DNA of 64,000 nucleotides, taken from a virus. The translations under genes were made by a program, and so were the position numbers. How positions within the stretch are numbered: the first letter of the stretch is position 1; the number at the start of each line of letters is the position of its first letter. The stretch is taken from IMG/VR virus record IMGVR_UViG_3300028412_000009. The stretch is one strand, 5' to 3'. The notes under the pieces were generated by a model that searched no databases, was not told the origin of the DNA, and worked only from the letters and a program-made list of their open reading frames with translations. Shown here one piece after another: positions 449 through 61,397 of this stretch.

Positions 449-1169
449 AGCTGTAGCCTTCACCGCCTATGACAGGCCCGGGTATCTTCGGGAATCTCTG
501 GAGTCCTGGCGGAAAGTTCGAGGGATGAATCGGTGGTACTTCTATCTCACTGTTGACCCTTCTGGGGAAACTCAGGAAGTAGTTGATCTCTTCACGCAGT
601 TTGCCCGAGACATGAGACTTCCTGATTGTGTGGTGAAAGTTAATCCTAGAAGGTATGGGGTTCTTCATCACCCCTGGGCCTCTTTTGATCATCTCTTTAG
701 TAACTTAGGAGTAGACCAGGTTCTTAGGGCGGAAGATGATCTTCTCGTTTCTGATGACATTCTAGAGATGTTTGAGTGGATTGACAACACCTACTCTGAA
801 GACACGAGAGTCGCCTCTGGGCACTCCTATTCTGGGGCACTGGAGGGGGACCCCAGAATTATTTCCAAATCTACTCGTTTCGAGTCCCTTAATTGGTGCA
901 CTTGGAGAGATAGATGGAATGACTTTATGCGGGACACATGGGATCATGATTACTCGACTTTCAATGGGGTCCCAGGAAGAGAGTCTGGGTGGGATTGGAA
1001 TTTGAACACCAGAATTTATCCCAAGTTTGGTCTTCAGGCTGTCCGACCTCAGCTCAGTAGAACTCAGAACATTGGTCTTCAGGGAACCCACTCCACGCCT
1101 CAGAACTTTTCACAGAGCCCTTCTTTCAGGGAAGAGTATGGGGTAGTTTCTTACGCAGAAGGACGATAG
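405..1169 (+). CDS. Glycosyltransferase family 2-like (GT-A fold)
   Basis: N-terminal AFTAYDRPGYLRESLESW resembles the GT2 IIPTYNRPELLxxCLESL block. An acidic DD-x-x-x-SDD stretch (EDDLLVSDD) could be the DXD motif. Confidence 0.4.
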   Translation: MEGPITLNPQPSRSRAVAFTAYDRPGYLRESLESWRKVRGMNRWYFYLTVDPSGETQEVVDLFTQFARDMRLPDCVVKVNPRRYGVLHHPWASFDHLFSNLGVDQVLRAEDDLLVSDDILEMFEWIDNTYSEDTRVASGHSYSGALEGDPRIISKSTRFESLNWCTWRDRWNDFMRDTWDHDYSTFNGVPGRESGWDWNLNTRIYPKFGLQAVRPQLSRTQNIGLQGTHSTPQNFSQSPSFREEYGVVSYAEGR

Positions 1170-1171
1170 TA
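1161..1171 (+). promoter_or_regulatory. Conserved intergenic 11-mer GGACGATAGTA
   Basis: Overlaps the stop codon of ORF 405-1169, 6 nt before the ATG at 1177. Confidence 0.3.
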
Positions 1172-1176
1172 GCACT

Positions 1177-1629
1177 ATGTCAGATAGCGCAGATCGAAGA
1201 GACCTTCAGGTTGAGGATACCCTTGACCTGGCTTTTGACCTGCCACAGGAGTTTGAGGATGACCCTTACCTGTCCTCCCTGTATCGGGAAATCATTGCTC
1301 GGTTGAGGGTTGAGGCAAACGGCCTTCCTATGAACACTGTTCAGACTCTTCTTCTAGAGCGCATTGCTTTCTTCTACATTAATCTAAAGAGGTCAGAGAG
1401 GTCTGAAGCTCTCAGCCCAACCAGACACAAGGACTTAGTCTCGTTCTGGCTTAATATGACCTCAGAGTTCAACAAGCAGTTAGCCGCAGGACATGAGCAG
1501 TTAAGAGACGCTCTTCTGTTGTCTATCTCTAAGATGGTAATGAGCAAGATTGATGAGATCGAGGACCAGGAAACCCGCCAGCAGTTGAGAATCCTTCTCT
1601 CTGAGGGATTCGCAGAGATGGGGCTCTGA
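1177..1629 (+). CDS. Hypothetical protein; possible small terminase subunit by position upstream of TerL
   Basis: Start follows a spacer after the conserved 11-mer. 150 aa, lies directly upstream of the large terminase. No diagnostic motif. Confidence 0.3.
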   Translation: MSDSADRRDLQVEDTLDLAFDLPQEFEDDPYLSSLYREIIARLRVEANGLPMNTVQTLLLERIAFFYINLKRSERSEALSPTRHKDLVSFWLNMTSEFNKQLAAGHEQLRDALLLSISKMVMSKIDEIEDQETRQQLRILLSEGFAEMGL

Positions 1630-2333
1630 TGATGGACTCTGATGACAGAGATCTGATTGTTCTTTTAGCCAGTAGCTCTGCCAGCCTTGCCGTGGCCCCG
1701 GGCAACAAGGATAATTGGGTGGAGCGTGCTGGTCCTGGAGGTCAGGGCGGCGAGCTCCCCCGCTATGTCCGAAAGATCGCCAGAGGGATAATGAAGTCAG
1801 GGAAGAGCAAGTCTCAGGCTATTGCTATTGCTATTAGCCGTATCAAGAGATGGGCCCGGGGCGGCGAGGATGTCAAGGCGGACACACGAATCAAGGCCGC
1901 AAAGGCGTTGGCAGAGTGGACCGCTCTAAAGGCCAAGAACAAGAGAAATCAGATCGTTAAAGCCTCAAACTCCGAGGGAGAGTATTTCATGCTCTCATAC
2001 TCTGGTGAGTTTAATACTGACCTTGTTCGCAGAGCCTGGAATAAGTTCCAGTCTGATCTCAGCAAGAAAACCTTTTCTGGGGACACCCCTGAAGAGGACA
2101 TTCCTGTTTTCTGGATTGTCGAGCTATGGACCTCTCATATCATTGTTGAAAAGTCTACTTATGGCGAATATGATCAGTCTGAGCACTTCAAGATCCCTTA
2201 TACAGTAGAGGGTTCTCAGGTCAACTTCGGGGTTCCAGAACCAGTGAAGTCTGCCTATGTCCCCGTTGAGTCAGACTTGACCTCGAATGAGAAGATCTTA
2301 CTTTCTGATTTGCTGACTTCTTCTAAGGAGTAG
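1629..2333 (+). CDS. Hypothetical protein with a Lys/Arg-rich central region
   Basis: Translationally coupled to the upstream ORF. Basic K/R-rich segment. No recognisable domain. Confidence 0.3.
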   Translation: MMDSDDRDLIVLLASSSASLAVAPGNKDNWVERAGPGGQGGELPRYVRKIARGIMKSGKSKSQAIAIAISRIKRWARGGEDVKADTRIKAAKALAEWTALKAKNKRNQIVKASNSEGEYFMLSYSGEFNTDLVRRAWNKFQSDLSKKTFSGDTPEEDIPVFWIVELWTSHIIVEKSTYGEYDQSEHFKIPYTVEGSQVNFGVPEPVKSAYVPVESDLTSNEKILLSDLLTSSKE

Positions 2334-2336
2334 CAT

Positions 2337-4196
2337 ATGAGAAGACTTTCGGATGAATTTCTCTTAGCTGGAGATGATCCTAACAGAAGCACTCTTAGTC
2401 AGGTCTTTGACGAGGAACCTGTCTCCCTAGACGTGTTTGTGCAGGATCAAAAGTTTCTTAATAACCCTCCCCTGTCGGACATCCAGTTTGAGCTTGTGCG
2501 TCATATTGAGCGTGTCTATCTTCCAGAGCTCTACCCTGCCATGGCTGACGAATTCGGAGGCTACTGGGAGGACACCTTAGACACCCCGATGCGGAACCTT
2601 ATCACCGCACAGTGGGGCAAGGGTGGCGGAAAGGACATGACTGTTGGAGTGGCCTCTCTGAGAGTTGCCTACTTGCTGATGTGTCTGAAGTCTCCACAAC
2701 AGCACTTTGGCATGACTTCCTCCAGCTCGATCCACCTCCTCAACATTGCCGCTAACGCTCCGCAGGCCCACCGTGCTTTCTTCGTGCCTCTAACCCGAGC
2801 CGTGAAGAGAGGATGGTTTAAGGACCGAGCTGAGCCCAAGATGAACACCATCATCTATGACAAGAACATCGAGGCTATTTCGGGACACTCTGACGCTGAG
2901 GGCCAAGAGGGTTTGAACCTGATCCTCGGGGTTGCAGATGAGATCGATGCTTTCAAGGCTCGCAATGAGCTCGTAGGCGGCGGAAGGAAGGCTCGCGAGG
3001 CCTCCACTACCGCTGAGGGTATTTTGGAGATGCTTAAGACATCTGCGTCTACTCGGTTCCCTCAGACCTATAAGCGCGTGGCCATTTCCTACCCGCGCTA
3101 CCTGGGATCCACGATCCAAAAGCTGACGGAAGAGGCCAAGGTCAATGTTGAGCGTTCTCCATCAACCTCGATCTATTTTGCCTCTGGTCCCTATGCCACC
3201 TGGGAAGTAAACCCTCTTCGTAAAGGCAAGCAAGAGTTTGCATCTGACTATGAAGAGGACCCAGTGGAAGCGGCGGCTAAGTATGAATGCAAGCCTGCCC
3301 GGGCCACTAACCCCTACTACCGAAACTTCTACATCTTCAAGCAGGCTGTAGACAGGGATACGCAACCCCTTTCTGTAGGATATAAGCGACGCATGGTGGA
3401 ATCCGAGGTTACCAAAGAGAAGACTTTGGGGTGGGAGCCGGTTTTCACTCTCTCTCCCGGCTTCAAGCCGATCCAGGGGGCTCGCTATGCTATGCACGGG
3501 GATCTCGCTATTTCAGGTGACCGTGCCGGAGTTGCGATGTCTCACATCTCTCACTATGAAGAGCGAGAAGAGGTTGTCGCTTCTGGAAAGGACGGAGAGC
3601 AAGTCACTCAGAAGACTTCAGTTCCTGTGATCCGCAATGACTTCACAGTGACGTTCGAGGCAGACTCCGGAGCTGAGCCTGCCCGAGAGATTCAAGTTCG
3701 GTGGGCCCGAGAGCTGGCTTTTGAGCTAGTTAAGCGTGGGTTCCCTATTGTGTCTTATACGTTTGACTCATTTCAATCAGCAGACAACATTCAGATCCTT
3801 CAACAGCACGGGATCCCTTCTGACAAGCTCAGTCCTGACCGAGACCAGAGCATTTGGCGGACCCTGAAAGATATTGCCTCCGAAGGAAGACTTCGAATGT
3901 CTTTTAATCAGTTGTTGCTCAACGAGCTTGAGGCCCTGTCTGTTTTCGGTAAGAAGGTAGACCACCCTCCTAACGGCAGTAAAGACGCCGCCGATGCTTT
4001 TGCTTGCTCCGTGGTGGGGGCCTTGGTCGCGGGGGGCGAAGAGGACCCTGACGGGACGATGGTAAACATGGGAGACACCATTTTTGAGGTCGGAGATGAG
4101 ATACACTTAGCTGATGGGCTGGGTTCTCTTAGCCCGATAGGAATGGAGTCTATACTCTCTCTACCTTCTGGATTTGAGGAATACAGTAATGGCTAA
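2337..4196 (+). CDS. terL: Terminase large subunit (TerL)
   Basis: 619 aa. P-loop-like GKGGGKD, Walker-B-like LILGVADEID, and C-terminal nuclease-type acidic residues (HGDLAISGDRAG; GSKDAADAF). Position immediately upstream of the portal. Confidence 0.7.
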   Translation: MRRLSDEFLLAGDDPNRSTLSQVFDEEPVSLDVFVQDQKFLNNPPLSDIQFELVRHIERVYLPELYPAMADEFGGYWEDTLDTPMRNLITAQWGKGGGKDMTVGVASLRVAYLLMCLKSPQQHFGMTSSSSIHLLNIAANAPQAHRAFFVPLTRAVKRGWFKDRAEPKMNTIIYDKNIEAISGHSDAEGQEGLNLILGVADEIDAFKARNELVGGGRKAREASTTAEGILEMLKTSASTRFPQTYKRVAISYPRYLGSTIQKLTEEAKVNVERSPSTSIYFASGPYATWEVNPLRKGKQEFASDYEEDPVEAAAKYECKPARATNPYYRNFYIFKQAVDRDTQPLSVGYKRRMVESEVTKEKTLGWEPVFTLSPGFKPIQGARYAMHGDLAISGDRAGVAMSHISHYEEREEVVASGKDGEQVTQKTSVPVIRNDFTVTFEADSGAEPAREIQVRWARELAFELVKRGFPIVSYTFDSFQSADNIQILQQHGIPSDKLSPDRDQSIWRTLKDIASEGRLRMSFNQLLLNELEALSVFGKKVDHPPNGSKDAADAFACSVVGALVAGGEEDPDGTMVNMGDTIFEVGDEIHLADGLGSLSPIGMESILSLPSGFEEYSNG

Positions 4197-6087: not shown

Positions 6088-6098
6088 GGACGATAGTA
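6088..6098 (+). promoter_or_regulatory. Conserved intergenic 11-mer GGACGATAGTA
   Basis: 15 nt after the stop at 6073 and 35 nt before the GTG start at 6133. Confidence 0.3.
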
Positions 6099-6132: not shown

Positions 6133-9100
6133 GTGTCAGCACCTCTTGATGATCCCCAAGAGCTCGATGAGCTCGTTGCCTTAGCCGCCCGCAGGCTGAG
6201 GAACTTGGGCGGTAGCAAGAGTCGGGGAGGCCGCTATGTTCGAACTCCCGAGGGGGCCCGACACTTCGGCCAGCCTGTAGGTACTCTCATCACCGCTGAC
6301 ATGGAAGCGGCGGCTGAGAGGCGTTCCGGTACCAAGGCCCCAAAGAATGCTCTGTCTTACGCGAAGCCCAAGCCTCAGACATCGGCACCCGGCTCTCGTC
6401 CTTTTGCAATGGGGGATCCCAAGAAGGATGGGCCTCATGTAGTCCAGCCTGTAAACAATCAGCCCGGCAACTCTTCGAAGTCTCAGAGCGTGGCTTCCAA
6501 GAAGGCGTCCACTCCTAGAGATGTTAATGCAGACAAGCCGAAGTTCGATGTTCCCACCAGGCTTAAGGAAACGCCATCTCTCCAGGGAGACAAGAAGTTT
6601 CGAGTAGGTAAGAAGGCTTACGATGCTCCAGAGGGTTCTCGCCTTATCAAGACCAAGGATGGTAAACTGGCTTATGTCATTGACCCCTCTGGTCGTCCCC
6701 ACCTCTTCAATGAGCGTGGTGAGGTAGAGCTCTCCCTGGAAAATGAGAACCGTATTGCTCGACTGTTCACTGAAGACTTCTCTGAGGACGAAAAGTACTC
6801 TGTTGAGGAGTTTGAGGAAGGAGGCACTAACCTAGGTCAGGTTGGTGACTCTGTCCCCGGCCGGGATTGGCTAAAGAATACTGACCCCGGTTCTGTCATT
6901 TCTTTTGGCGAGGGGGAAAAGGTCCGCTGGAAGAAGGGCTCTGATGGAAACTGGCGTCGTGAGGAGGATGGAGACTCTGGCCCGCATTTTGAGTCTGAGG
7001 TTATGCCCTTTGACGAGAATACGAAGATCGAAGAAGTTCCCGAAGTCAGGTCCGACCAGGCCTTCGACCCAGCCATTGATGAAGTTGATGATACTGACCT
7101 TGATGAGCTGAACGCGGAAATAGAAGAGTCCATGGAGCGACTATCTCCTGAGGACCAAGATCTTGTTCGAGCCATGACATTCCAGATGCGCAGTATGGTC
7201 GCGGGTCGTTCCCTGGGATCTCCCGAGGGTGGGGACCGATCTGAAAGCGAAGACACGCGACAGCCCTCTGTCGGGGGGCCAGTAGATCGAGAGACTCTCA
7301 GTTCATCTAAGCCGGGCACTACAGTGTCTGAGGAAGACCCTGTCGAGAACCGAAAGATTCGTTGGACGAAGAACGAGGATGGCAAGTGGTACACCCGAGG
7401 GTCTGACGAGGGGGTTGAGGATGACTACTTCGATGAGTCCTCCTCTGCAACCTTTACGTCGGTCCCCGATTCCTCCCCCGAGGGTCAGTCAGATTCTCGG
7501 CCTGCTTCCGAGAGCTCCTCTTCTGCTGGGAAAGACTCCACAGAATTCGTGCCTGGTGATTCAGAAGCCGGTACTACGGTCACTGTCCCGGAGGGGGATT
7601 CTGGCCGCGTCTTCGTGAAGGTAGGGGATAACCAGTGGGTCTCCCCCTCCCCCGATGGGTCCAATGTTGACAGCTTCACTGATGACGACATGAAGGATAG
7701 GGACGTAACTGTCCTGCCTTCCTCTGACAGGCGCGCCGCCTCCGGGAGGCGCATGGCAGAACGCCGTAGTCGTGAGGCTTCCCCTCTTCCCTCAGCTGAG
7801 TCGGTTGAAGCTAACCAGCGCGCCCGCCGCGAGGCTTCCGAAGAAGCTAGCCGTCGAGGTCGCGAGCTTATGAAGGCTGACGAGAGGCGCAGGGCTGATG
7901 AGGCTAGAAAGAACCCAGCTGAGGTCTCTGATTTGGATGGGGCTGGGGCCGGAGAATCCGTGACTGTGGTTGACCCTGACGGTTCTGTCAAGAGTTGGAA
8001 AAAGTCCGAGCAGACGGGCAATTGGCACGACTGGGACCGAGACAAGATCAGTCCTTTCTCCGAGGCGTTGAACGGCACGTCAGACAGAGAGAAGAGGGGC
8101 CTTTCTTCAGAAGAGCTTCTTGAGGAAAGTGAGGCTGTCTCCAAGCCCGCTTCCCGTCGAGGTCGGGGTACTTCGGAGGGAGAGAGTGCTCGCCCAACTC
8201 CCCAGCCTGACCCCAACAACCCCAATGATCTTTCCAACGCCGAAGAGGGCGATGTTGCCTATGCTCAGGATGAAGATGGCAACGACCGAGAGTTCTTGAA
8301 GTCTCCTAATGGATCTTGGATGTCTGCTCCTGAGGGTAAGGACACCTTTGAAGAGTGGTCTGATGATGAGTTGAGAGAGCTCGGTGGGGAGCTCGATCCT
8401 ACTCGCACTTCTGTAGACTTCCCCAACGCTTACGGATCTCACACCAATCAGGTCCAGCCTAATGAGGAGGCCGCTCCTACTAGCCCTGAAGGTGCTGAGT
8501 CTTCTCCCCGCCCTCGGAGGAGGAGAGGGCGTAGAAAGTCCGTCCCTGGATTTGATGAAATAGATACGGGGGATTCAGGGGCTAATGACGAGCTCTTCGA
8601 CCCTGACGCTGAGCCTCAGGATCTTCCTGAAGGAGAAGATGTCATCCCCAAGGCCAATGAGTTTGAAGAGGTTGACCAGCCGGGAGATGAGGCTCGTAAG
8701 CGCCCTGGAGGCAAGATGCCCCAGCGCAAGCCTTCGCCAGATCTTCCTGATACCGACACTCTCGGGAACCCTGATGGCTTCTCTCCCACTCCAGTGGGTG
8801 CCGAAAATCAGGAGTGGTCACTTCAGCCTAAGGACACCATTACCCGTGAATGGTTCCGTAACGCCCCTGCCGGTTCTCAGATCACTGCCCCCGATCCGAC
8901 CTCTGCACGCGGAGAGTCCATCTGGGAGAAGGATCTCAACGGAGAGTGGAACCGAGTTGTCGGTCGTGCCGGTCACTTCAGTCCGCGCTCAACTGGTGGG
9001 GCCGGTAACGAGGGCCCGGGTCACAACTTCAACATTTTCGAGCCCGATGGGTCCCTTTCTGAGGAGTTCGGGGATTACAAGGTTGGTAAGTCGGGAGACG

Positions 9101-17822: not shown

Positions 17823-18385
17823 GTAAGCTTTCCTTGGCCGCACGCAATATGCTGGTACAGACTCCCGAGGTTCAGAGCCTCGTCTCTAGCGGGTTGATCG
17901 CAAGTGACTCTGAATGGGACAATGGGTGGGTTTTTGACAATTACATCATTCCCAGAGCTCTTGATGACAAGTCATACACCACAGCGGTCGTTGTTTCAGA
18001 GCGTGTCTGGCAGGATCCTAATCCACACAATACGATGAAGTTTCCCCTGCTGGAGGTCGATATTTGGGCGGCTCCTACGAGAGATAGTTCTGGTTCCATC
18101 ATAGAGAGGGACGCCGACGACCTCATTGAGGAGGTAATGGCTGGGATAATGCCTTATTTCCACGCTATTGATCGAGGCGTCCCCGGCAGATCTGGAGACC
18201 CTCATATCTCCTACATGGGCTCACCCGGAGAGGTGAGATATTGGGGAACAGAAGATGAGATTCTCAATCATACAGGGGTTCCTATTTTCGACTCCACCCA
18301 TATCAGCACAGAAGACTTCAGGGATGTTGAAGGCGGTAATGGGGTAAGGTACCGATCTTACCGCTTTGGCATCGAAACAGCTTAA
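17819..18385 (+). CDS. Hypothetical protein; candidate tail terminator
   Basis: 188 aa. 4-bp overlap with the upstream gene. Confidence 0.3.
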   Translation: MSKLSLAARNMLVQTPEVQSLVSSGLIASDSEWDNGWVFDNYIIPRALDDKSYTTAVVVSERVWQDPNPHNTMKFPLLEVDIWAAPTRDSSGSIIERDADDLIEEVMAGIMPYFHAIDRGVPGRSGDPHISYMGSPGEVRYWGTEDEILNHTGVPIFDSTHISTEDFRDVEGGNGVRYRSYRFGIETA

Positions 18386-19538
18386 TCCAATAACTCACAG
18401 AGGACTTGATCCCATGAAAGTATTGCTAACAATCCCACTCTCTCGTTTTTCAGGTTATGGGAATGACGGAATTGGACTTACCCGAGCCTTAGTACGTGCG
18501 GGGGCAGATGTATATATCCGTCCGAAGGTGGTGCAGGCTCCCCTTCCTGCTGACATTGCCCAGCTTCTGACAAAGGGGCTTCGAGCCCCTTTCGATCTCA
18601 CCATCACCCACTTGGACCCAGCGGCCTTACAGCTACCCCCCGACACCCGCGCCTCCAGTAAGATCTGCATCGCCTGGAGCATGTGGGAGTACACAGACTT
18701 TAGCTTCATGAGAGGTCGATCTAAACTCCGCGAGAATCTGCGAGACTACGATGCTGTAGTTGGGTATGACGAGGTTACTAACGAGTGTTTCCGCCCTTAT
18801 TATCGGGGTCCTATCCTGAAGCAACAAGGTGGATATGAGCCGGAAGGTTGGGAGTATTTAGAGCGGAATTGGAATTCGGAAGACTTCTATTTCTCCATGG
18901 TTGGGGCTCCCCTTTCTATCAGGAAGAATCCATTGTCTGCTGTGAAGGCATTTGGCGAACTCAAGAACGAGAACTCCGAGTTTGACAAACATGCTAGGTT
19001 GATGTTGAAAACTACCCCTGACGACAAAGGACTTAGCCCCAAGATGGAGGATGTGTATCCGGGTCTGAGGGTGTTCGCGGATACTTGGACCCCTGACATT
19101 CTCAAAGAGTTCTATCGGAACACCCACGTACTTCTGGCCCCCTCCCGGGGGGAAGGGAAGCACATGCCTTCTCTGGAGATCCAAAGCACTGGAGCTCCGG
19201 TCATCGCTACCAACTGGGGTGGCATGACTGAATGGCTTAGCCCTGAGTATTCCTACCCAGTGGACTACCGGCTGTCCCTTCAAGACCCTATCAACAAGTC
19301 TATGACTAACGCTGAAGTCTCGGTCCCTCATCTCAAAGAGCTTATGCTTCATGCGTTCCAGAATCGAGATGAAGTGAGGCACAAGGGGTTCGTAGCTTCG
19401 CAGATTATCCCTCAACTTTGCTCCTGGGAGAATGTTGTAGGTAGGTTGATGGGCAAATTGAGGGATCTCGAAGGTGGAGAGGAACTGTGGGCCCGTTACC
19501 AGATAGCTCTTTCGGAGGCTGAAGATGGAGACGACTGA
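18366..19538 (+). CDS. Glycosyltransferase family 4 (GT-B fold)
   Basis: C-terminal LAPSRGEGKHMPSLEIQSTGAPVIATNWGGMTEW matches the GT4 E-x7-E nucleotide-sugar motif (PSxxEGFG..EAMAxGxPVIAT). Embedded in the structural module. Confidence 0.7.
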   Translation: MASKQLNPITHRGLDPMKVLLTIPLSRFSGYGNDGIGLTRALVRAGADVYIRPKVVQAPLPADIAQLLTKGLRAPFDLTITHLDPAALQLPPDTRASSKICIAWSMWEYTDFSFMRGRSKLRENLRDYDAVVGYDEVTNECFRPYYRGPILKQQGGYEPEGWEYLERNWNSEDFYFSMVGAPLSIRKNPLSAVKAFGELKNENSEFDKHARLMLKTTPDDKGLSPKMEDVYPGLRVFADTWTPDILKEFYRNTHVLLAPSRGEGKHMPSLEIQSTGAPVIATNWGGMTEWLSPEYSYPVDYRLSLQDPINKSMTNAEVSVPHLKELMLHAFQNRDEVRHKGFVASQIIPQLCSWENVVGRLMGKLRDLEGGEELWARYQIALSEAEDGDD

Positions 19539-19770
19539 AGTCCGCTGTCCTGTAGGCCCCCGAAGATTGTTCACTAAACTCCTTAGCGATGGAAAAAAAC
19601 CTACCATCACCGCATCCAACCTAATTGAGTTTTCTTGCCCAGAGTGTAAGAAGCTTTTTAGGACGCAACACAATATCTATTGCTCTAGAGTTTTACACCG
19701 CTATGATTTAGCCGGAGAATTGGTTGAGTCAGTTCTTGAGGATGCTCAAGTTCGACCTCGTGGCCGATAG
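19525..19770 (+). CDS. Small zinc-ribbon protein
   Basis: CPVGP...CPECKK: two Cys pairs. 81 aa. Confidence 0.35.
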   Translation: METTEVRCPVGPRRLFTKLLSDGKKPTITASNLIEFSCPECKKLFRTQHNIYCSRVLHRYDLAGELVESVLEDAQVRPRGR

Positions 19771-19772
19771 TA
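19762..19772 (+). promoter_or_regulatory. Conserved intergenic 11-mer GGCCGATAGTA
   Basis: Overlaps the stop at 19768-19770 and lies 54 nt before the GTG at 19826. Confidence 0.3.
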
Positions 19773-19825: not shown

Positions 19826-20404
19826 GTGGCTACCAAGAACGTTGAGGGGTTTTCTATCTCTCACGCCGCGATTCTCGACGGCCAGACTGGACTTGAAGAA
19901 GAGTTCGGTGATCTGTATGGTATCCGCTCCGGTTCTCTAGAGCTTGATCAGGATAGCTACGACAACACTGGTGACGACGGAATCCTCAGTACCTGGTACT
20001 GGGCTAACAAAGTGAACGTCACCATTCAGTCTGGGTACATCCCGTTCCAGACCTGGTCTCTGATTTCCGGCTCGAAGGTTACCTCTTCCGGGTCGGGAGC
20101 TAGCGAGATTCTGGAAGCCCCCCTTTGGGAGCAGAGGCAGATGAACACTCAGCCTCGACCTATGCTTGTGCGAGTCCCTTCTAAGGACTCTGCGGGTGCG
20201 GTTCGCCTTCTGGACTTTATCCTGTTCAAGGTTCAGTTCCAGCCTTTCAGCTTCGACGGACCTTCTTACAAGGAAGGTCTTCTGGTTAACTACAATGGAT
20301 CCGCCTTGTTCTCGGACACTGACCACGAAGGCAACCAAGTAGTTGACTCTCAGACTGGGGATCCAACGACTGCCATTGGAAAGCTTATTTCCAAGGGAGT
20401 TTAA
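19826..20404 (+). CDS. Major tail protein (tail tube)
   Basis: 192 aa, GTG start with a strong RBS. Lies immediately upstream of the two chaperone genes and the tape measure gene. Gly/Ser/Thr-rich. Confidence 0.5.
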   Translation: MATKNVEGFSISHAAILDGQTGLEEEFGDLYGIRSGSLELDQDSYDNTGDDGILSTWYWANKVNVTIQSGYIPFQTWSLISGSKVTSSGSGASEILEAPLWEQRQMNTQPRPMLVRVPSKDSAGAVRLLDFILFKVQFQPFSFDGPSYKEGLLVNYNGSALFSDTDHEGNQVVDSQTGDPTTAIGKLISKGV

Positions 20405-32286: not shown

Positions 32287-32515
32287 GGCAATTATTGGAG
32301 AACAGCAGATTGCCCTCTCTCTTCTCAATAGAAAACTCTCTACTGCCTATATCCCGAACGAGTTAGGTCAGTTGCTTCATGGGGCCTGCGGGGAAGTTGG
32401 TTTAACCCGATCTGGAGATGAATTTCTAAGGTGTTGCTCTTGCTTCCCTTCTTCTGATCAGGCCGATAGTAACCAAGAAGAGACTCCCGAAAAAGACACT
32501 TCTGATTTGTCCTAG
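32255..32515 (+). CDS. Doubtful ORF containing an instance of the conserved 11-mer
   Basis: 86-aa ORF with no features. ggccgatagta lies at 32461-32471, so this span may be non-coding and regulatory. Confidence 0.2.
   Translation: MNLDINLETAKAIIGEQQIALSLLNRKLSTAYIPNELGQLLHGACGEVGLTRSGDEFLRCCSCFPSSDQADSNQEETPEKDTSDLS
32461..32471 (+). promoter_or_regulatory. Conserved 11-mer GGCCGATAGTA
   Basis: Inside the doubtful ORF 32255-32515 and 90 nt before the ATG at 32561. Confidence 0.25.
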
Positions 32516-35328: not shown

Positions 35329-36063
35329 ATGAACCCACCCTTGAATGACACGCAGAGAAAACTTGTCGAAGATAACATCGACCTAGCCCGTCATCTTGCC
35401 CACACTTCGTGGAGGCGAATGACAGCTGGAGTGGAACTAGACGAAGTCCTCTCTGCCGCCTACCATGGGCTGACTATTGCCGCCCGTAACTACGACCCCA
35501 TGGCCTTTGATAGATCCCAGGAGTCTATTGACAGCGGGGTGGCGTTCTCTTCCTACGCCAGGAGAAGGATTCTAGGGTCAATCCTGGACTGGCAAAGGTC
35601 TCAAGACCATGTCCCTAGAAGACAGCGCAAGGTCTATAAAGAGATTCAGGAACTTGGATACGAGTCGGGCGTGCCTTTAGAGACTATTTCTTCGAAGCTG
35701 GATCTTCCTCTAGAGAAAGTTAAGTCTATCATTTCTCGTGTGGAGAGTTCCCCGGTTTCTTTTGACAACCATATTCCTAATTCAGACGAGAACTCAGGAG
35801 GGGACTTAGGGTTCCAGGTCGAGGACCAGAATGACCTGGAATCTTCTTCGTTGGTTAAGTTGATCTCTAAGACTATGACTGAGGCATGGGAATCTCTTCC
35901 TCATGAGCAAAGATTGATTGTGGCCCTTCGCTACTATGCGGAAATTGACCTCTCTGCTATTGCCAGCCTGCTTGACTCCTCGTTGGAGTCCGTGCGCTCT
36001 TCCCATGCCCTGGCCGTGGAAGCCTTGCACCAAGCCATGCTGTCTGAAGTCTCGGGAGAATAG
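35329..36063 (+). CDS. Phage-encoded sigma-70 family RNA polymerase sigma factor
   Basis: Region 2-like DLARHLAHTSWRR...YHGLTIAARNYDP and region 4-like LPHEQRLIVALRYYAEIDLSAIASLL. Start set at the ATG at 35329, right after the helicase stop. Confidence 0.65.
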   Translation: MNPPLNDTQRKLVEDNIDLARHLAHTSWRRMTAGVELDEVLSAAYHGLTIAARNYDPMAFDRSQESIDSGVAFSSYARRRILGSILDWQRSQDHVPRRQRKVYKEIQELGYESGVPLETISSKLDLPLEKVKSIISRVESSPVSFDNHIPNSDENSGGDLGFQVEDQNDLESSSLVKLISKTMTEAWESLPHEQRLIVALRYYAEIDLSAIASLLDSSLESVRSSHALAVEALHQAMLSEVSGE

Positions 36064-37520: not shown

Positions 37521-37660
37521 CTTGACCCTTGGGGGTCTTGGTGGTAGAGTGGCCAGACACCGATAAGGAGATCACATGTCTAAGTTCTATGACAATTTCG
37601 ACAAGATGTTCGTTACAGCCTGGGTTATATCTGTAATAGCTAGTCTCACGATGCTGGGAG

Positions 37661-43434: not shown

Positions 43435-43964
43435 GTCTTTCCGCCTATGATCTCCCGTTTACGGAGCTTGAGTCAAAAGTCATTGACTGGGCCCAGGAGT
43501 GCCTAGAGCTTAGGCACGGGGAAGCCGGGGATCCCGAGGGGAAGCTACGAGAGCCTGACCCCTCTTCAGGAATATCCGGAGTCATGACCACACTTCGCCG
43601 GGTGCGCAGTCGCTCGGATCGAGTAGAAGAGTTTCTGGCTAAGGCAACTCAGGCCCGGGCCCGTGCCAGACGAGCCCGCGACGAGGCCGCGTTTGCATCA
43701 GAGATTGCTTATGATGAAGCGGCCCTCATTCGAGCGGCGCGTCGGCACCCCGACTTATTTTCTTCGGGCAAAGAGCGCCACGCGGAGGCTTCTACAGACT
43801 CTCTCAATGAGCGGAGAGATGCCCACCAGGCAAGGCGTCTCGTGTCTGTGACTGAGGAAGCCTATGACGTGATCACGCAAGTCCACTGGCAGTTGGACGC
43901 TATTCGCAAGGACCTGCGCGCCTCACTCCACGCCCTACAATTTGAGTCCGGATTGGAAAGATAG
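43431..43964 (+). CDS. Hypothetical protein
   Basis: 177-aa Arg/Ala-rich ORF. Confidence 0.3.
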   Translation: MSLSAYDLPFTELESKVIDWAQECLELRHGEAGDPEGKLREPDPSSGISGVMTTLRRVRSRSDRVEEFLAKATQARARARRARDEAAFASEIAYDEAALIRAARRHPDLFSSGKERHAEASTDSLNERRDAHQARRLVSVTEEAYDVITQVHWQLDAIRKDLRASLHALQFESGLER

Positions 43965-48863: not shown

Positions 48864-49037
48864 CCAGCAGAGGCTTGACAGGGGCTCACGGGGCGGGTAG
48901 AGTCAAGGGAACTGACTACAAAGAAAGGAACCTCATGGCGCATAACCGAACGGATGTGGGTGGCATGTTTGAATGCACCACCCACGATTGTTTGGGACTG
49001 AACTGTTGGCATCACCTCGGAGACTCTGAGGAAACAG

Positions 49038-54411: not shown

Positions 54412-54422
54412 GGCCGATAGTA
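54412..54422 (+). promoter_or_regulatory. Conserved intergenic 11-mer GGCCGATAGTA
   Basis: 2 nt after the thyX stop, just upstream of the Y RNA promoter. Confidence 0.3.
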
Positions 54423-54450
54423 GAAAGTTCAAAATTTTTGCCCTCTGAGC

Positions 54451-54480
54451 TTGACAAGGGCCCGGAGGGTCTGTAGTGTC
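54451..54480 (+). promoter_or_regulatory. Sigma-70-like promoter upstream of the Y RNA array
   Basis: TTGACA at 54451-54456, an 18-nt spacer, and TAGTGT at 54475-54480. Lies just downstream of an instance of the conserved 11-mer. Confidence 0.35.
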
Positions 54481-54506
54481 ATCAACATAACTTAACAGCG
54501 CGAGAT

Positions 54507-54592
54507 TTACACGAGCCGAAGAGGCAGTCGGTTATCATTCAAACTGAAATTATGCCCTCGGGCTATCCGACCCTCACCCCATGTTCGTGTGT
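54507..54592 (+). ncRNA. Y RNA-like element 1 (Ro60-binding-type stem with bulged C; internal GC hairpin gccctcgggc)
   Basis: 5' ttaCACGAGC-C-GAAGagg pairs with 3' cCTC-ACCCCAT-GTTCGTGtg. The architecture matches units 2 and 3. A GGTTATC box is shared by all three units. Confidence 0.4.
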
Positions 54593-54598
54593 TTCTTA

Positions 54599-54709
54599 GA
54601 ATGAGCCGAAGAGGCATCGGTTATCCCACTGAAAATGAGAACCTGGCGGTTCGATTCCGTCATTAGTTGGAACAGGTTATTTTTCCGATCTTCACCCCCA
54701 TGCTCATTC
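54599..54709 (+). ncRNA. Y RNA-like element 2 with tRNA-like T-arm
   Basis: 5' GAATGAGC-C-GAAG (54599-54611) pairs with 3' CTTC-ACCCCCAT-GCTCATTC (54690-54709). Internal T-arm GGCGG-TTCGATT-CCGTC at 54645-54661. Confidence 0.5.
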
Positions 54710-54713
54710 ACTC

Positions 54714-54755
54714 GCCTCTCTTGGAGGTTCATCGGGTTCGACTCCCGATGGAGGC
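54714..54755 (+). ncRNA. tRNA top-half-like minihelix (acceptor-like stem GCCTC/GAGGC enclosing a perfect T-arm)
   Basis: TCGGG-TTCGACT-CCCGA (54732-54748) flanked by gcctc...gaggc. No D-arm or anticodon arm is present. Confidence 0.3.
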
Positions 54756-54758
54756 ACA

Positions 54759-54892
54759 AAAACTGAACCGAAGAAGTATTGGTTATCCATGCTAAGGAAG
54801 AGGTCACGGGTTCGAATCCCGTCATCAGACCTAGTCTGATGTAGCTCAGAGGCAGAGCGCTTAAACCCAATCTTCACCCCATGTTCAGTTTT
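54759..54892 (+). ncRNA. Y RNA-like element 3 (YrlA-like) with a complete tRNA-mimic module
   Basis: Terminal stem AAAACTGAAC-C-GAAG (54759-54773) pairs with CTTC-ACCCCAT-GTTCAGTTTT (54872-54892). Inside are a T-arm ACGGG-TTCGAAT-CCCGT (54806-54822), an acceptor-like hairpin CATCAGAC-cta-GTCTGATG (54823-54841), a U8-A9-like TA, and a D-arm GCTC-AGAGGCA-GAGC (54844-54858). Confidence 0.55.
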
Positions 54893-54937
54893 ACCACATG
54901 TTCAGAAATACTGAACCGAGAGAAAGGATGAACACCT

Positions 54938-56557
54938 ATGGCTAACAATAGCCTCAAGTCCGTCACAACCCGACCCGGAATGACGGCCACTCCTCAGACG
55001 CAGAAGGCGGCTAAGGGGCAGAAGGAGAACAACGCAGGCGGCTACACGTTCACTGTCTCAGACATGGACCGAGCCAAGCGTTTCTTGATCCTTGGATCTG
55101 ACTCGTCGTTCTACCAGAGCGGCCAGGAGCTCTCCAAGGACAACGCCAAGAACCTGATCAAGCTTGCGAAGTCTGACCGTGCCCAGGAGCTCACTGACCT
55201 GATTGTGGAGATCTCCACTCAGGGTCGTGCGGCCAAGCAGGACCCCGGTCTGTTTGCACTGGCCGTCGTGGCTTCCCATGGCGCGACTGAGGACAAGCAG
55301 TACGCTCTGTCCAAGCTCTCTCAGGTAGCCCGTACCGGATCCTCGCTGTTCACGTTCATCACTTACGTGGAGCAGTTCCGAGGGTGGGGGCGTGCCCTGA
55401 CCAAGGCGGTTTCTTCTTGGTACACGGAGAAGTCTGTGGACAAGCTCGCCTACCAGACGGTGAAGTACCGTCAGCGTGATGGCTGGACTCACCGGGACGT
55501 GTTCCGCAAGGCGCACCCTCAGAAGGGCAAGAACGGAATCTCCGAAGGAGAGGATGCTCGTGCTTTTGAGGCGCTGGGTGAGTGGATTCTCCGAGGTGAG
55601 TTGTTGGAGAACACTCCTAAGCTTGTTCGCGGCTTCACGATGGCCCAGACTGCTTCTAAGTCTGAGCTTCCTGCTCTGATCAGGGAGTACGGACTGTCGT
55701 GGGAGATGCTTCCTACCGAGGCTCTGAACGACAAGAAGGTCTGGGAGACGTTGCTTCAGGGCAATGTTCCTCTCGGGGCCCTGTTGCGTCAGCTTCCTCG
55801 TTTGACGAAGCTCGGCATCGTCGCGCCTATGGGTGGAAAGACTGCTGAGATCGCCAAGAGGATCACTGATCCTGAGGAGCTCAAGCGTGCCCGTATCCAC
55901 CCCTTGAACCTTCTGGTTGCCCAGAAGACCTACGGGGCGGGGCACAGCCTCCGGGGCAATTCCTCCTGGGCCCCCAACCAGAAGATCGTGGACGCTCTTG
56001 ACAAGGCCTTCTACCTGTCCTTCAAGACGGTCGAGCCCGCTGGCAAGCGCACTCTGATTGGGTTGGATGTCTCCGGCTCGATGGGCTGGGCTTCAGTGGC
56101 CGGGGTTCCTCTCATGCCTTCCGAGGCAGGAGCGGCCCTTGCGTTGGTCATTGCCAACACGGAGCCTGAGGCGCACATCTTCGGATTTGCGGACACCTTC
56201 CGTGAGTTGGGCCTCTCCCCAGGGATGCGACTTGACCAGGCCCTGCGGCAGACAAGTTTAAGGACGTTCGGAGGCACGGACTGTGCTCAGGCCATCGAGT
56301 ACGCTCGTACTCACAAGTTGGAAGTGGACACGTTCCTTGTGATCACAGACAACGAAACCTACGGGGGTCGGAGTCACCCACACGAGGCCTTGCAGAGGTA
56401 CCGTCGAGAGACTGGCATCGATGCGAAGCTCATCGTGCTGGCGACTACTGCTTCCGAGTTCAGCCTCGCGGATCCCAGTGATGGTGGGATGCTGGACATC
56501 GCTGGGTTCGACTCAGCAGTTCCTCAGCTGATCAACGAGTTCTCTCGGGGACTCTGA
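54938..56557 (+). CDS. rsr: Ro60 orthologue (Rsr): TROVE domain plus C-terminal vWA domain
   Basis: 539 aa. The N-terminal and central region resembles TROVE. The vWA MIDAS motif LIGLDVSGSMGW (DxSGS) is followed by conserved vWA blocks. GC content and codon usage are higher than in the flanking phage genes. Confidence 0.8.
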   Translation: MANNSLKSVTTRPGMTATPQTQKAAKGQKENNAGGYTFTVSDMDRAKRFLILGSDSSFYQSGQELSKDNAKNLIKLAKSDRAQELTDLIVEISTQGRAAKQDPGLFALAVVASHGATEDKQYALSKLSQVARTGSSLFTFITYVEQFRGWGRALTKAVSSWYTEKSVDKLAYQTVKYRQRDGWTHRDVFRKAHPQKGKNGISEGEDARAFEALGEWILRGELLENTPKLVRGFTMAQTASKSELPALIREYGLSWEMLPTEALNDKKVWETLLQGNVPLGALLRQLPRLTKLGIVAPMGGKTAEIAKRITDPEELKRARIHPLNLLVAQKTYGAGHSLRGNSSWAPNQKIVDALDKAFYLSFKTVEPAGKRTLIGLDVSGSMGWASVAGVPLMPSEAGAALALVIANTEPEAHIFGFADTFRELGLSPGMRLDQALRQTSLRTFGGTDCAQAIEYARTHKLEVDTFLVITDNETYGGRSHPHEALQRYRRETGIDAKLIVLATTASEFSLADPSDGGMLDIAGFDSAVPQLINEFSRGL

Positions 56558-57821: not shown

Positions 57822-57839
57822 CGAAGCGAACGTCACAAG

Positions 57840-58865: not shown

Positions 58866-58868
58866 AAC

Positions 58869-59643: not shown

Positions 59644-59841
59644 ATGGCTGACGTAGGCTGGACTAAGCTTTCACGTACCAATCATTCATGTCCTCTGCCC
59701 AATGAAAAAGAGATCTCTCTCCGAGGGGCTGGACACGGTTCCCAATGGACATGCTCCCAGTGCTACAGGGTCTACCGCCTAGAGCGGGTCTCCTTCTCTT
59801 CTGACACTGAGGTGCACTGCGTATGGAAAGAGATCCACTGA
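59644..59841 (+). CDS. Small zinc-ribbon protein
   Basis: CPLP...CSQC...C: Cys pairs in 65 aa. Confidence 0.25.
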   Translation: MADVGWTKLSRTNHSCPLPNEKEISLRGAGHGSQWTCSQCYRVYRLERVSFSSDTEVHCVWKEIH

Positions 59842-60004
59842 TGAGGGACTACAGGAGAAGTGCATGATCGCTGACTGCTGTTGCTATTGGGGCTGTGCGG
59901 TGTCAGGAGAGCACCCAGAGTTCGAGTGCTATCGTTGTCCTGTCCATGGAGGCCCTTTGGCCCAGCCATGGGAACTATGCAAACGCCATAAGAGGGAGAG
60001 CCAG

Positions 60005-60953
60005 AGTGACTAGAATCCTGTGTGTGGGGGACATCCATGCGAGAGACCGAGCTCCTCGTGGGGCCAATGAGCCTTACCTAGAGGATCTGCTCGACCTCTT
60101 GCGCCAGACAATCCAACTTGAGAGTAAGTACGATTGTGATGCCGTGGTCTGGGCTGGGGATGTCTTCCACGAAAAGGCCCCATCGAAGACTTCACACTCC
60201 ACCGTACTGCGCATGATCGAGATCGTGCAGGGCTACAAGAACCTGTGGATCGTGCCAGGGAACCATGATGTCTCGAATGATGTACTGGATAGCATCTACG
60301 ATAAGCAACCTCTGGGCATCCTGTACCGAGCTGGGGCCAAGGAACTATCCGGCTGGCACCCTGAGTTGCCCCTGTATGGCATCCCCTGGCAACAGGACTG
60401 GCATGAGGAGGGCACTCTGGATCGAGTGGCTTCACTCTGGCTGGAGGCCTCACGGCACCAGGAATCGCTGATTGTCACCCATGCGCCTCTGTACGCCCCT
60501 CAGGAGGCCGCTAAGGTGCCGTTCGACACAATCCCCCTAGAGGAGCTCTCCAAGGCTCTGGGAGGCTCAGGGAGCCTGTACTACGGCCATATCCATGAGG
60601 ATCACGGCATCTACGCTGTCGGGGGCGTGACCTACTGCAATATGGGCGCACTGTCTCGCGGATCTCTGCATGAGTACAACATCGAGCGGGACATCAAGGT
60701 CGCTCTGTGGGAAGACGGTGAATTCACTGAGATCAAACTGGATGCCAAGCCCGCTGAGCAAGTGCTGAGGGTGGAGGCACACCTGGAGGCCAAGGAAGGT
60801 AAGTTGAATCTAGAAAGTTTCCTGGATTCCATCGGGGCCAAGACACTGGAGATCAGCTCAACATCAGCTGTTGTCGATTACATCAGAGGCCGGGATGACC
60901 TAGATCGCACTGTCAAGGATCGAGCAATCAAGATCCTAGAGGATGCAGAGTGA
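60005..60953 (+). CDS. Calcineurin-like metallophosphoesterase (SbcD/Mre11-like nuclease)
   Basis: ILCVGDIHAR (motif I), VVWAGDVFHE (motif II GD), LWIVPGNHDVS (motif III GNHD), plus later GH motifs. The ORF track begins at 59895; a GTG start near 60005 is likely. Confidence 0.7.
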
Positions 60954-61230
60954 TCTAGGTCATCCTGCTCTATCTCGCAGTGCTGGGGCTGGGAAGTCAT
61001 CTTGGGTTCATGGTAGTAGTTATCCGAGATACAAGACGGAGGATCAGGTACAAGGAAGCGAGACTGAGAGAAAGAAGAAGCACAAGATTGTCCGTCAGAG
61101 TTATGGGGAGATTGAGTGCTCTTGTGGGGTCGGGTTCATCTTTCCCGTCAGTATCCCCATGTCAGAGTTGCTGACAGAGCTCTCTAGGCACTTCGGACCC
61201 TTGAGGATCGAGCTGAAGAAGGCCAGATGA
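60943..61230 (+). CDS. Hypothetical small protein
   Basis: 95 aa. Last + strand ORF before the orientation switch. Confidence 0.25.
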   Translation: MQSDLGHPALSRSAGAGKSSWVHGSSYPRYKTEDQVQGSETERKKKHKIVRQSYGEIECSCGVGFIFPVSIPMSELLTELSRHFGPLRIELKKAR

Positions 61231-61386
61231 GTGAACACTATATCTATGAGGTGGATTGCACCCTCATAGGCGAGGGAGGCAGTCAGAAGACGGTCGTCTG
61301 TAGGTGTGGAGCTCTCTACACCTTCCCCTTGATTCACTACACCGTGCCTGAGATCAAACAGGGGCAGGGAAGATACTGCATATAGT

Positions 61387-61397
61387 GGCCGATAGTA
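61387..61397 (+). promoter_or_regulatory. Conserved intergenic 11-mer GGCCGATAGTA
   Basis: At the orientation-switch region, abutting the 9-bp hairpin. Confidence 0.3.

What the first reader, a model, noticed from the sequence alone, without database searches (positions are those of the whole stretch)
1161..61397. Recurrent intergenic motif cAGG[C/A]CGATAGTA (nine or more copies, all + strand)
Exact or near-exact copies occur at 1161, 6088, 11677, 14573 (variant GGCCGATGGTA), 16157, 19762, 32461, 54412 and 61387. A weaker aGGATAGTT lies at 37701. An 11-mer is expected less than once by chance in 64 kb. All copies are co-oriented with the genes. Most sit within 0-15 nt of the stop codon of the upstream gene, and two overlap the TAG stop. 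Their distance to the next start codon varies from 6 to 54 nt. Candidate roles are a phage-specific promoter element (the phage encodes its own sigma factor at 35329-36063), an RNA processing or stability site, or an operator for a phage regulator. The pattern resembles the start-associated or stop-associated conserved sequences described in some actinophage clusters.
Basis: seen in the sequence. Interest (0 to 1): 0.7.

Follow-up and report, generated by a model that had tools for sequence, protein, structure and literature searches.

The report
Sigma-28-type late promoters of a phage
The repeated 11-base motif is most likely the -10 element of promoters read by the phage's own FliA/WhiG-like sigma factor to switch on virion genes. 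This is an ordinary kind of phage regulation, seen here in a little-studied actinophage lineage where it had not been described.

Summary
GGNCGATRGTA occurs 11 times in the window, all on the + strand, against 0.12 expected.

The core GCCGATA matches the published -10 consensus of sigma-28 (FliA/SigD/WhiG) promoters, GCCGATAA. The phage sigma factor (35329-36063) is closest to FliA/WhiG and keeps the residues that read this element.

With sigma-28 numbering, the predicted start site is the A of the ATG at 1177 and 11693, so those mRNAs would be leaderless. The same spacing holds at the scaffold gene of the related phages. No -35 element is present.

Twelve related genomes, including Microbacterium phage Magritte, carry the motif at syntenic sites. 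The GGnCGAT part is constant and the 3' part differs by lineage.

One copy inside the protease/scaffold gene is conserved in all 12 genomes. In the 11 examined in detail it lies 42-51 nt upstream of a conserved internal AAGGAG-ATG.

In a 96.8%-identical strain, the only minus-strand genes are preceded by a minus-strand copy.

Verdict: phage sigma-dependent, -35-less, sigma-28-type promoters, mostly for late genes. This is a new member of a known kind. There are no transcript data.

The parts
1161..1171 (+). Motif copy GGACGATAGTA. Predicted +1 is 1177, the A of the ATG of ORF 1177-1629, so the mRNA would be leaderless. The motif's TAG is the stop codon of ORF 405-1169.
4054..4064 (+). Motif copy GGACGATGGTA inside the 3' end of the terminase gene (2337-4196). 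Predicted +1 is 4070, about 119 nt upstream of the portal gene start (4189 by the gene call in L011). It is identical in strain L011 but absent at this site in Magritte, so this is the least certain copy.
6088..6098 (+). Motif copy GGACGATAGTA, 34 nt before the GTG of the 1770-aa ORF (6133-11445). A syntenic copy is present in L005, L006, L010, L012, L015 and Magritte.
11677..11687 (+). Motif copy GGCCGATAGTA. Predicted +1 is 11693, the ATG of the protease/scaffold gene (11693-12787). The start codon falls at +1 or +2 in all 12 related genomes.
12193..12203 (+). Intragenic copy GGCCGATGGTA inside the protease/scaffold gene. Predicted +1 is 12209. It is conserved at the same place in every related genome and follows each lineage's own motif variant.
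12251..12787 (+). Inferred nested in-frame ORF (178 aa, the C-terminal half of the protease/scaffold gene). Its ATG is preceded by AAGGAG and lies 42 nt after the predicted internal +1.
14481..14516 (+). Strong intrinsic-terminator-like hairpin (16-bp stem) just after the major capsid gene, followed by the next motif copy.
14573..14583 (+). Motif copy GGCCGATGGTA after the capsid gene and its terminator. Predicted +1 is 14589. Syntenic copies occur in all relatives.
16157..16167 (+). Motif copy GGACGATAGTA. Predicted +1 is 16173, upstream of ORF 16196-16507 and the ORFs that follow (probably head-tail connector genes). Syntenic in L005, L006 and L007.
19762..19772 (+). Motif copy GGCCGATAGTA. 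Predicted +1 is 19778, upstream of the major tail protein gene (19826-20404). The motif's TAG is the stop codon of ORF 19525-19770. Syntenic in all relatives where that region was fetched.
32461..32471 (+). Motif copy GGCCGATAGTA after the tail-fibre block. Predicted +1 is 32477. Magritte has a syntenic copy at 43606.
54412..54422 (+). Motif copy GGCCGATAGTA at the start of a 527-nt non-coding stretch that holds Y RNA-like modules, upstream of the Ro60 gene. Predicted +1 is 54428, which is a T and so atypical.
61387..61397 (+). Motif copy GGCCGATAGTA. Predicted +1 is 61403, upstream of small ORFs of unknown function.
35329..36063 (+). Phage sigma factor, 244 aa, FliA/WhiG-like (group 3). This is the proposed reader of the motif.

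Best explanation
Each copy is the core of a promoter. G(-16)G(-15)n C(-13)G(-12)A(-11)T(-10)A/G(-9)G(-8)T(-7)A(-6) is a composite extended -10/-10 element of the sigma-28 class, whose consensus is GCCGATAA. It is read by host core RNA polymerase carrying the phage-encoded FliA/WhiG-like sigma factor (35329-36063). That gene sits in the replication module, so it is presumably made earlier in infection. The sigma then redirects transcription to the virion genes, to a nested scaffold-like gene, and to a few other units, including the Y RNA-like/Ro60 region. No -35 element is used. Transcription starts 11 nt downstream of A(-11). At two genes in the window this is the A of the ATG, which gives leaderless mRNAs. 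What is shown: the motif, its enrichment and strand bias, its match to the sigma-28 -10 consensus, the sigma's family and its conserved contact residues, the spacing to start codons, and conservation across related phages. What is inferred: that transcription actually starts there, that the phage sigma rather than a host sigma reads the motif, and the late timing.
For: (1) Enrichment and strand bias: 11 copies, all on the + strand, against 0.12 expected.

(2) Match to the sigma-28 -10 element. The published consensus is (-15)GCCGATAA(-8), with GC as the extended -10, A(-11) flipped out and -7 not conserved (PMC12784957). For WhiG the consensus is T(A/C)AA-N16-GCCGATAA, with the central CGA most conserved and the last 3 nt variable (PMC12871210). 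In 51 pooled instances, C(-13), G(-12), A(-11) and T(-10) are invariant, but the search patterns required them. G(-16), which the patterns left free, is G in 49 of 51. The last positions vary by lineage.

(3) The sigma's best family and PDB matches are FliA/WhiG: TIGR02479 at 1e-21 and 6pmi_F at 1.8e-14. Its most conserved block, ILDWQRSQDHVPRRQR, aligns with the FliA residues that contact the -12/-13 bases and the extended -10 (Pa D87, D93, R97, R101). Y76 and D66 of the A(-11) pocket are also kept.

(4) Geometry. A(-11)+11 falls on the A of an ATG in 11 of 51 instances, where about 0.8 is expected. The predicted +1 is a purine in 43 of 51, and -1 is a pyrimidine in 35 of 51.

(5) Conservation. 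Twelve related genomes with 52-66% GC carry the motif at syntenic sites, always on the gene strand.

(6) Orientation follows transcription. In strain L011 the only minus-strand genes, one of them a collagen-like fibre gene, are preceded by a minus-strand copy.

(7) The intragenic copy in the protease/scaffold gene changes with each lineage's motif, at the cost of changing the encoded amino acids. In the 11 genomes analysed, it lies 42-51 nt upstream of a conserved in-frame AAGGAG-ATG.

(8) A strong terminator after the capsid gene is followed by a copy.

(9) The sigma gene lies on the same contig as the motif in 9 of the 12 related genomes; for L008, L009 and L011 it was not recovered.
Against: There are no transcript 5' ends, expression timing or binding data for any of these phages. 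The sigma scores below NCBIfam's curated cut-offs for FliA/WhiG (78 bits against 190), so it is a divergent relative and not a certified member. It keeps a region 4 domain (PF04545, 2e-11), yet no -35 element is detectable, so the role of region 4 is unexplained. Two copies in the window (54412, 61387), and three in Magritte (68582, 70407, 121538), lie outside the virion module, so 'late only' is an over-simplification. The ATG-at-+1 statistic rests on only 4-5 independent sites, because the scaffold-gene site is counted once per genome. I could not map which sigma residues track the lineage-specific 3' half of the motif.
Confidence: 0.8

Rival explanations
1. The sites are promoters, but they are read by a host sigma factor (host WhiG/FliA, or the primary sigma using GATAGT as a -10 hexamer). 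The phage sigma would then have other targets.
For: The core equals the WhiG/FliA consensus, and WhiG homologues are widespread in Actinomycetota (PMC12871210). GATAGT has A at position 2 and T at position 6, as a sigma-70-type -10 hexamer does (one search lists one such match by the simple scan).
Against: Host WhiG/FliA promoters have a well-conserved -35 (T(A/C)AA or CTCA at N16-17), which is absent here (at most 1 of 51 at any spacer length from 14 to 18 nt). The 3' half of the motif differs between phage lineages (GTA, CTAC, CTC, TCCCTG), alongside sigma proteins that are only 33-55% identical. That is what a phage-specific reader would produce. Magritte's variant GATATC lacks T(-7), which a primary sigma needs. 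The phage sigma has no other candidate target motif in the window.
Confidence: 0.1
2. The sites are binding sites for a phage DNA-binding regulator. They would work like the asymmetric 'stoperators' of cluster A mycobacteriophages, which sit in short intergenic gaps, are co-oriented with transcription, and block elongation.
For: The motif is an asymmetric 11-mer with many copies. It lies in short intergenic gaps, often next to stop codons, and is strictly co-oriented with the genes.
Against: The match to the sigma-28 -10 element, the presence of a sigma-28-like sigma, and the exact 11-nt spacing from A(-11) to start codons are all unexplained by a roadblock model. The purine at the predicted +1 and the copy placed just after a terminator are also unexplained. 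No relative of the phage sigma was found in 185,579 bacterial species genomes, which gives no sign of a prophage state. I did not search systematically for a repressor or an integrase.
Confidence: 0.04
3. The motif acts at the RNA level, as an endonuclease processing site or a stability element that cuts polycistronic late mRNA between genes.
For: The position between genes and the strict strand specificity would also fit an RNA signal. Cleavage could in principle create 5' ends at the ATG.
Against: There is no conserved secondary structure around the copies (0 pairs). No Rfam family matches them. The sequence coincides with a known DNA promoter element whose cognate type of sigma is encoded by the phage. 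An RNA site would not need to follow the terminator after the capsid gene.
Confidence: 0.04
4. The motif is a translation-linked signal, like the start-associated sequences of cluster K mycobacteriophages, or a by-product of coding and stop-codon usage.
For: The motif contains TAG and often abuts or supplies the upstream stop codon.
Against: The distance to the next start codon ranges from 0 to more than 50 nt, with ordinary Shine-Dalgarno sequences in between. Copies inside genes are read in frame as ordinary codons. The enrichment is about 90-fold over dinucleotide shuffles.
Confidence: 0.02

Closest known systems
Sigma-28 (FliA / SigD / WhiG) promoters of bacteria: TAAA-N15-16-GCCGATAA
   Same: Same -10 core (GCCGATA, invariant CGA, A at -11). 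Same tolerance at -14 and variability after -9. Same class of sigma (group 3, domains sigma-2, -3 and -4), with the contact residues conserved.
   Different: No -35 element. There is an extra conserved G at -16. In several lineages a conserved block runs from -8 to -1. The element is encoded by and used in a phage for virion genes, not for flagellar or sporulation genes. The sigma is divergent and scores below the family cut-offs.
T4 late promoters (TATAAATA at -10, no -35) read by the phage sigma gp55 (from my own knowledge)
   Same: A phage-encoded sigma-family protein directs host core RNAP to late genes through a -10-only element.
   Different: gp55 is a minimal sigma (region 2 only) that needs gp33 and the sliding clamp. 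Here the sigma is full length with region 4, and no co-activator is known.
phiEco32 / phage 7-11 type phages, in which a phage sigma reads middle and late promoters predicted from the genome sequence (PMC4331800, seen and not read in detail)
   Same: The strategy is inferred in the same way: a phage-encoded sigma plus a repeated promoter motif upstream of late genes.
   Different: Different sigma family (ECF-like), different motif, and enterobacterial hosts.
Stoperators of cluster A mycobacteriophages (L5 gp71 sites; from my own knowledge)
   Same: An asymmetric 11-13-bp site with many copies, in short intergenic gaps, co-oriented with transcription.
   Different: Stoperators bind a repressor in temperate phages and have no fixed relation to start codons or to a sigma consensus.
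Nested scaffold genes (Mu I/Z, lambda C/Nu3; from my own knowledge)
   Same: A C-terminal product is made from an in-frame internal start inside the protease/scaffold gene. Pfam Mu-like_Pro hits this gene, and a conserved internal AAGGAG-ATG is present.
   Different: Here a dedicated internal promoter copy sits 42-51 nt upstream of the internal start.

Membership tests
Sigma-28-class promoter | -10 region GCCGATAA, with the central CGA conserved and A at -11 | tested here: met
   51 of 51 pooled instances have CGAT (required by the search patterns). G(-15) is present in 50 of 51 and G(-16), which the patterns left free, in 49 of 51. Consensus taken from PMC12784957 and PMC12871210.
Sigma-28-class promoter | -35 element TAAA / T(A/C)AA (or CTCA), 15-17 nt upstream of the -10 region | tested here: not met
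   At most 1 of 51 instances has T[AC]AA at any spacer length from 14 to 18 nt. Information content stays below 0.25 bit at every position upstream of -16, and no 4-mer occurs in more than 12 of 51.
Sigma-28-class promoter | Transcription start about 7-8 nt after the -10 region (A(-11)+11) | tested here: inconclusive
   Only indirect evidence: ATG exactly at the predicted +1 in 11 of 51 instances, purine at +1 in 43 of 51. No 5'-end data exist.
Sigma-28-class promoter | Dependence on a sigma-28-family sigma factor | not testable with these tools
   The sigma gene lies on the same contig as the motif in 9 of the 12 related genomes; for L008, L009 and L011 it was not recovered. Proof needs in vitro transcription or genetics.
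FliA/WhiG sigma factor family (for the protein 35329-36063) | Score above the curated family cut-off (NCBIfam TIGR02479, 189.6 bits) | tested here: not met
   77.6 bits, E 1.1e-21. It is the best-matching subfamily but far below the cut-off.
FliA/WhiG sigma factor family (for the protein 35329-36063) | [quoted passage not shown] | tested here: met
   Aligns to E. coli FliA residues 18-233 (6pmi_F). Pa numbering D66, Y76, R80, D87, D93, R97 and R101 are kept; R82 is not.
Stoperator-type repressor sites | A temperate phage with a cognate repressor that binds the sites | not tested
   No systematic search for a repressor or integrase was made. No prophage relatives were found in GTDB genomes using the sigma as probe.
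Start-associated sequences (cluster K mycobacteriophages) | Fixed position immediately upstream of the translation start of the associated genes | tested here: not met
   The gap between the motif end and the next start codon varies from 5 to 53 nt in the window.

The most novel reading that the evidence does not exclude
This phage lineage has about 100 sigma homologues and more than 550 capsid homologues in metagenomes. It may have turned a captured sigma-28 into a -35-independent late sigma whose specificity extends through the discriminator, as far as -1 in some lineages, and has diverged together with the promoters. If so, nature has produced a series of mutually orthogonal sigma/promoter pairs: GATAGTA, GATAGTACATAG, GATACTACATAG, GATACTCC, GATATCCCTG. 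These pairs would start leaderless mRNAs precisely and drive a nested scaffold gene from a promoter written into coding sequence.
Probability: 0.3. Interest if true: 0.6.

Novelty: new member of a known kind. Interest (0 to 1): 0.45.

Why it matters
The result gives a concrete, testable transcription map for a widespread but almost unstudied group of large siphophages of Actinobacteria. The only isolate in the phage collection searched here, Magritte, annotates the sigma simply as 'DNA binding protein'.

It shows that the sigma-28 -10 element can work, or at least is conserved, without the -35 element that bacterial sigma-28 promoters need.

It corrects gene starts, for example in L008, where the leaderless ATG lies 18 nt inside the called gene. 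It also predicts a nested scaffold gene.

The lineage-specific variants could become orthogonal expression parts for Actinobacteria. Conceptually, however, this is the familiar scheme in which a phage sigma switches on late genes.

Tried and rejected
- A megablast of the window against 50,697 phage records found nothing. A tblastn with the sigma found only Magritte.
- One IMG/VR relative (L004, 42% scaffold identity, 67% GC) has no CGATA at all and no clear motif, so it was uninformative.
- A literal search of the literature for CGATAGTA or GATATCCCTG returned only primers. Searches for phage FliA-like sigma factors or actinophage late promoters found no prior description.
- Rfam at gathering threshold and ARAGORN found nothing in the window.
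- RNAalifold on 11 copies gave no structure.
- A search for a -35 element, using fixed and variable spacing and 4-mer enrichment, was negative.
- Other over-represented 8-mers in the window (ACATTGAA and others) are codon-usage words inside genes, not motifs.
- I tried to relate sigma residues to the variable 3' half of the motif across 10 sigma/motif pairs and saw no interpretable pattern.
- Walking past the 3' end of the window failed, because the ORF 62139-62447 is not on record.
- A scan of GTDB genomes for prophage copies found none.
- The Magritte minus-strand genes are preceded by a sigma-70-like promoter, not by the motif. The minus-strand copy is therefore seen only in the window's own lineage (L011).
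Full report
**Observation.** The motif is real. CGATAGTA occurs 8 times against 0.52 expected. It is the most over-represented 8-mer in the window, at 33-fold.

A position-weight scan adds two intragenic copies that carry the GATGGTA variant already seen at 14573. The refined pattern GGNCGATRGTA has 11 matches, all on the + strand, against 0.12 expected.

The site at 37701 lacks the invariant CGA and I do not count it.

**Context.** The window is part of a siphophage-like genome in which all genes lie on the + strand.
- The virion module, up to about 32.5 kb, holds glycosyltransferases, terminase, portal, a 1770-aa protein, a Mu-like protease/scaffold gene, the major capsid protein, tail genes and the tape measure.
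- A replication module follows, with a helicase, a sigma factor at 35329-36063, DnaB, DNA polymerase and a RecA-like protein.
- A Ro60 homologue lies at 54938-56557.

There is no close DNA relative among 50,697 phage records. The nearest isolate is Microbacterium phage Magritte (133 kb), which is syntenic, with about 50% amino-acid identity in the DNA polymerase.

**What the motif matches.** The phage sigma (true start 35329, 244 aa) is closest to the FliA/WhiG (sigma-28, group 3) family. NCBIfam TIGR02479 scores 1.1e-21, below the curated cut-off. The best PDB matches are all FliA, led by 6pmi_F at 1.8e-14 over residues 14-234.

The published -10 region of sigma-28 promoters is (-15)GCCGATAA(-8). 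GC acts as an extended -10, A(-11) is flipped out, -12G and -13C are contacted by D87, the extended -10 is read by R97, and position -7 is not conserved (PMC12784957). For actinobacterial WhiG the consensus is T(A/C)AA-N16-GCCGATAA. Its central CGA is the most conserved part and its last three bases vary (PMC12871210).

The window motif, G-G-(C/A)-C-G-A-T-(A/G)-G-T-A, is this element. The sigma's most conserved block across about 100 homologues, ILDWQRSQDHVPRRQR, aligns with the FliA segment that carries those contact residues. The aromatic residue and the aspartate of the A(-11) pocket are also kept.

**Geometry.** With the sigma-28 numbering, +1 lies 11 nt downstream of the A of GATA. In the window this is the A of the ATG at 1177 and at 11693.

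I pooled 51 instances from eight genomes:
- ATG sits exactly at the predicted +1 in 11 instances, where about 0.8 is expected. The naive p-value is 4e-10, but these represent only 4-5 independent sites.
- The predicted +1 is a purine in 43 of 51.
- Position -1 is a pyrimidine in 35 of 51.

In four further genomes the scaffold-gene ATG is at +1 or +2. Leaderless mRNAs are common in Actinobacteria (my own knowledge) and need a start site placed exactly on the start codon. That requirement explains the rigid spacing.

Upstream of -16 nothing is conserved. At most 1 of 51 instances has T(A/C)AA at any spacer length from 14 to 18 nt. These are therefore -35-less promoters.

**Comparative evidence.** The capsid protein has 558 homologues, many on 100-138-kb contigs. 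I examined 12 related genomes: L005-L010, L012-L015, the 96.8%-identical strain L011, and Magritte.

In every one, a motif with the constant part GGnCGAT lies on the gene strand at syntenic places:
- before the giant protein gene;
- before the protease/scaffold gene;
- inside that gene;
- after the capsid gene;
- before the major tail gene.

The part 3' of -9 is specific to each lineage:

| Genomes | Motif variant |
|---|---|
| window, L005, L006, L007 | GTA(r) |
| L009 | GTACATAG |
| L008 | CTACATAG |
| L012 | GTAAGAsCsA |
| L014 | GTACAGG |
| L015 | CTC(C/A) |
| L010 and Magritte | TCCCTGr |

The cognate sigma lies on the same contig in the nine cases where both could be paired, and these sigmas are 33-55% identical to the window's.

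In L011, the only minus-strand genes are a 136-aa gene and a collagen-like fibre gene. They are preceded by a minus-strand copy 34 nt upstream of the start codon. Orientation therefore follows transcription.

**The intragenic copy.** The copy inside the protease/scaffold gene is especially informative. It is present in all genomes, 498-516 nt after the gene start in the five measured. It follows the lineage's own motif variant even though this changes the encoded residues (A-D-S-N, D-D-S-S, A-D-T-T, V-D-I-P). In the 11 genomes analysed, its predicted +1 is always 42-51 nt upstream of a conserved in-frame ATG preceded by AAGGAG. In the window that ATG is at 12251.

This is what a promoter for a nested C-terminal scaffold-like product would look like, as in Mu I/Z (my own knowledge for Mu).

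In addition, a 16-bp-stem terminator follows the capsid gene at 14481-14516, and a motif copy comes directly after it at 14573.

**Mechanism proposed.** The sigma gene lies in the replication module and has no motif copy in front of it, so it is probably expressed from other promoters. Candidate sigma-70-like sites TTGAC(A/C)-N17-TAG(A/T)GT lie at 37522, 48875 and 54451. The sigma then binds host core RNAP and starts transcription at the GGnCGATAGTA sites.

Nine of the eleven copies in the window serve the virion module. The other two lie before the Y RNA-like/Ro60 region and before small ORFs at 61.4 kb. The timing, the dependence on the sigma and the start sites are inferred, not shown.

**Rivals.**
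- A host WhiG or primary sigma could read the sites. The missing -35 and the lineage-specific 3' halves argue against this.
- A stoperator-like regulator site fits the asymmetry and co-orientation but not the sigma-28 match or the start-codon geometry.
- An RNA processing site has no structural support.
- A start- or stop-associated translation signal is excluded by the variable spacing.

**Novelty.** I found no description of this motif, or of phage FliA/WhiG-like sigmas with such promoters, in the searchable literature. Magritte's annotation calls the sigma a 'DNA binding protein'.

The principle, a phage sigma plus a -10-type late promoter, is well known from T4 gp55, SPO1 and phiEco32-like phages. 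I therefore rate this a new member of a known kind. It has three variant features: no -35, an extended downstream block, and leaderless starts. Interest is moderate.

Noticed in passing
window 54428-54937 (upstream of the Ro60/TROVE gene 54938-56557): A 527-nt non-coding stretch holds a sub-threshold Rfam YrlA (Y RNA-like) hit at 54798-54864 (34.9 bits, E 7.5e-6; gathering score 69). It also holds what look like three repeated modules, starting near 54514, 54605 and 54764: the first two begin gagccgaagaggca, the third ctgaaccgaagaag; each contains ggttatc, two have tRNA T-arm-like hairpins, and a cttcaccccatg box recurs. This is probably a phage Y RNA array next to its Ro60 partner. Magritte also has a Ro-like gene (gp118) with a 450-nt gap upstream.
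   Followed up: partly
window 37522-37550, 48875-48903, 54451-54479: Three intergenic sigma-70-like sites, TTGAC(A/C)-N17-TAG(A/T)GT, are candidate host-sigma (early or middle) promoters. The pattern as a whole is not enriched (4 on the + strand against 2.4 in shuffles).
   Followed up: partly
Magritte, L002/L003 (record 87,300-133,100): Magritte carries two other repeated promoter-like families outside the region syntenic with the window. One is cTTGTGCGTTAGCGCGT(g)ACGTG..TAAT, with sigma-70-like -35/-10 spacing, in 7 or more copies. The other is TTAG(C/T)GCGTATCAC..ATG, placed directly before start codons. They may be early and middle promoter classes.
   Followed up: no
window 6133-11445 (homologues in L008, L009, L013 and L014 exceed 2,800 aa): A giant ORF in the head module (1770 aa here, up to at least 3,688 aa in relatives) has no Pfam or PHROG match. 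It is always preceded by a copy of the promoter motif.
   Followed up: no
L011 1-1642 (8 kb upstream of the window start, minus strand): A collagen-like (GPQGPxG repeat) fibre protein and a 136-aa protein are the only minus-strand genes in this phage. They are driven by a flipped copy of the motif.
   Followed up: partly
window 405-1169 and 18366-19538, and homologues in all relatives: Glycosyltransferase genes sit inside the virion module (GNT-I-like before the terminase; Glyco_trans_1_4-like before the major tail gene in relatives). This suggests glycosylated virion proteins.
   Followed up: no
L008 8263 against 8281; Magritte gp9 5332 against 5353: Called gene starts lie upstream of the predicted leaderless ATG. 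The promoter geometry suggests that the true starts are 8281 and 5353.
   Followed up: no
window 14863-16149: A 428-aa ORF between the capsid gene and the connector genes hits a PHROG annotated 'exonuclease' (phrog_284, 8e-33). That is an odd function for this position in a head module.
   Followed up: no
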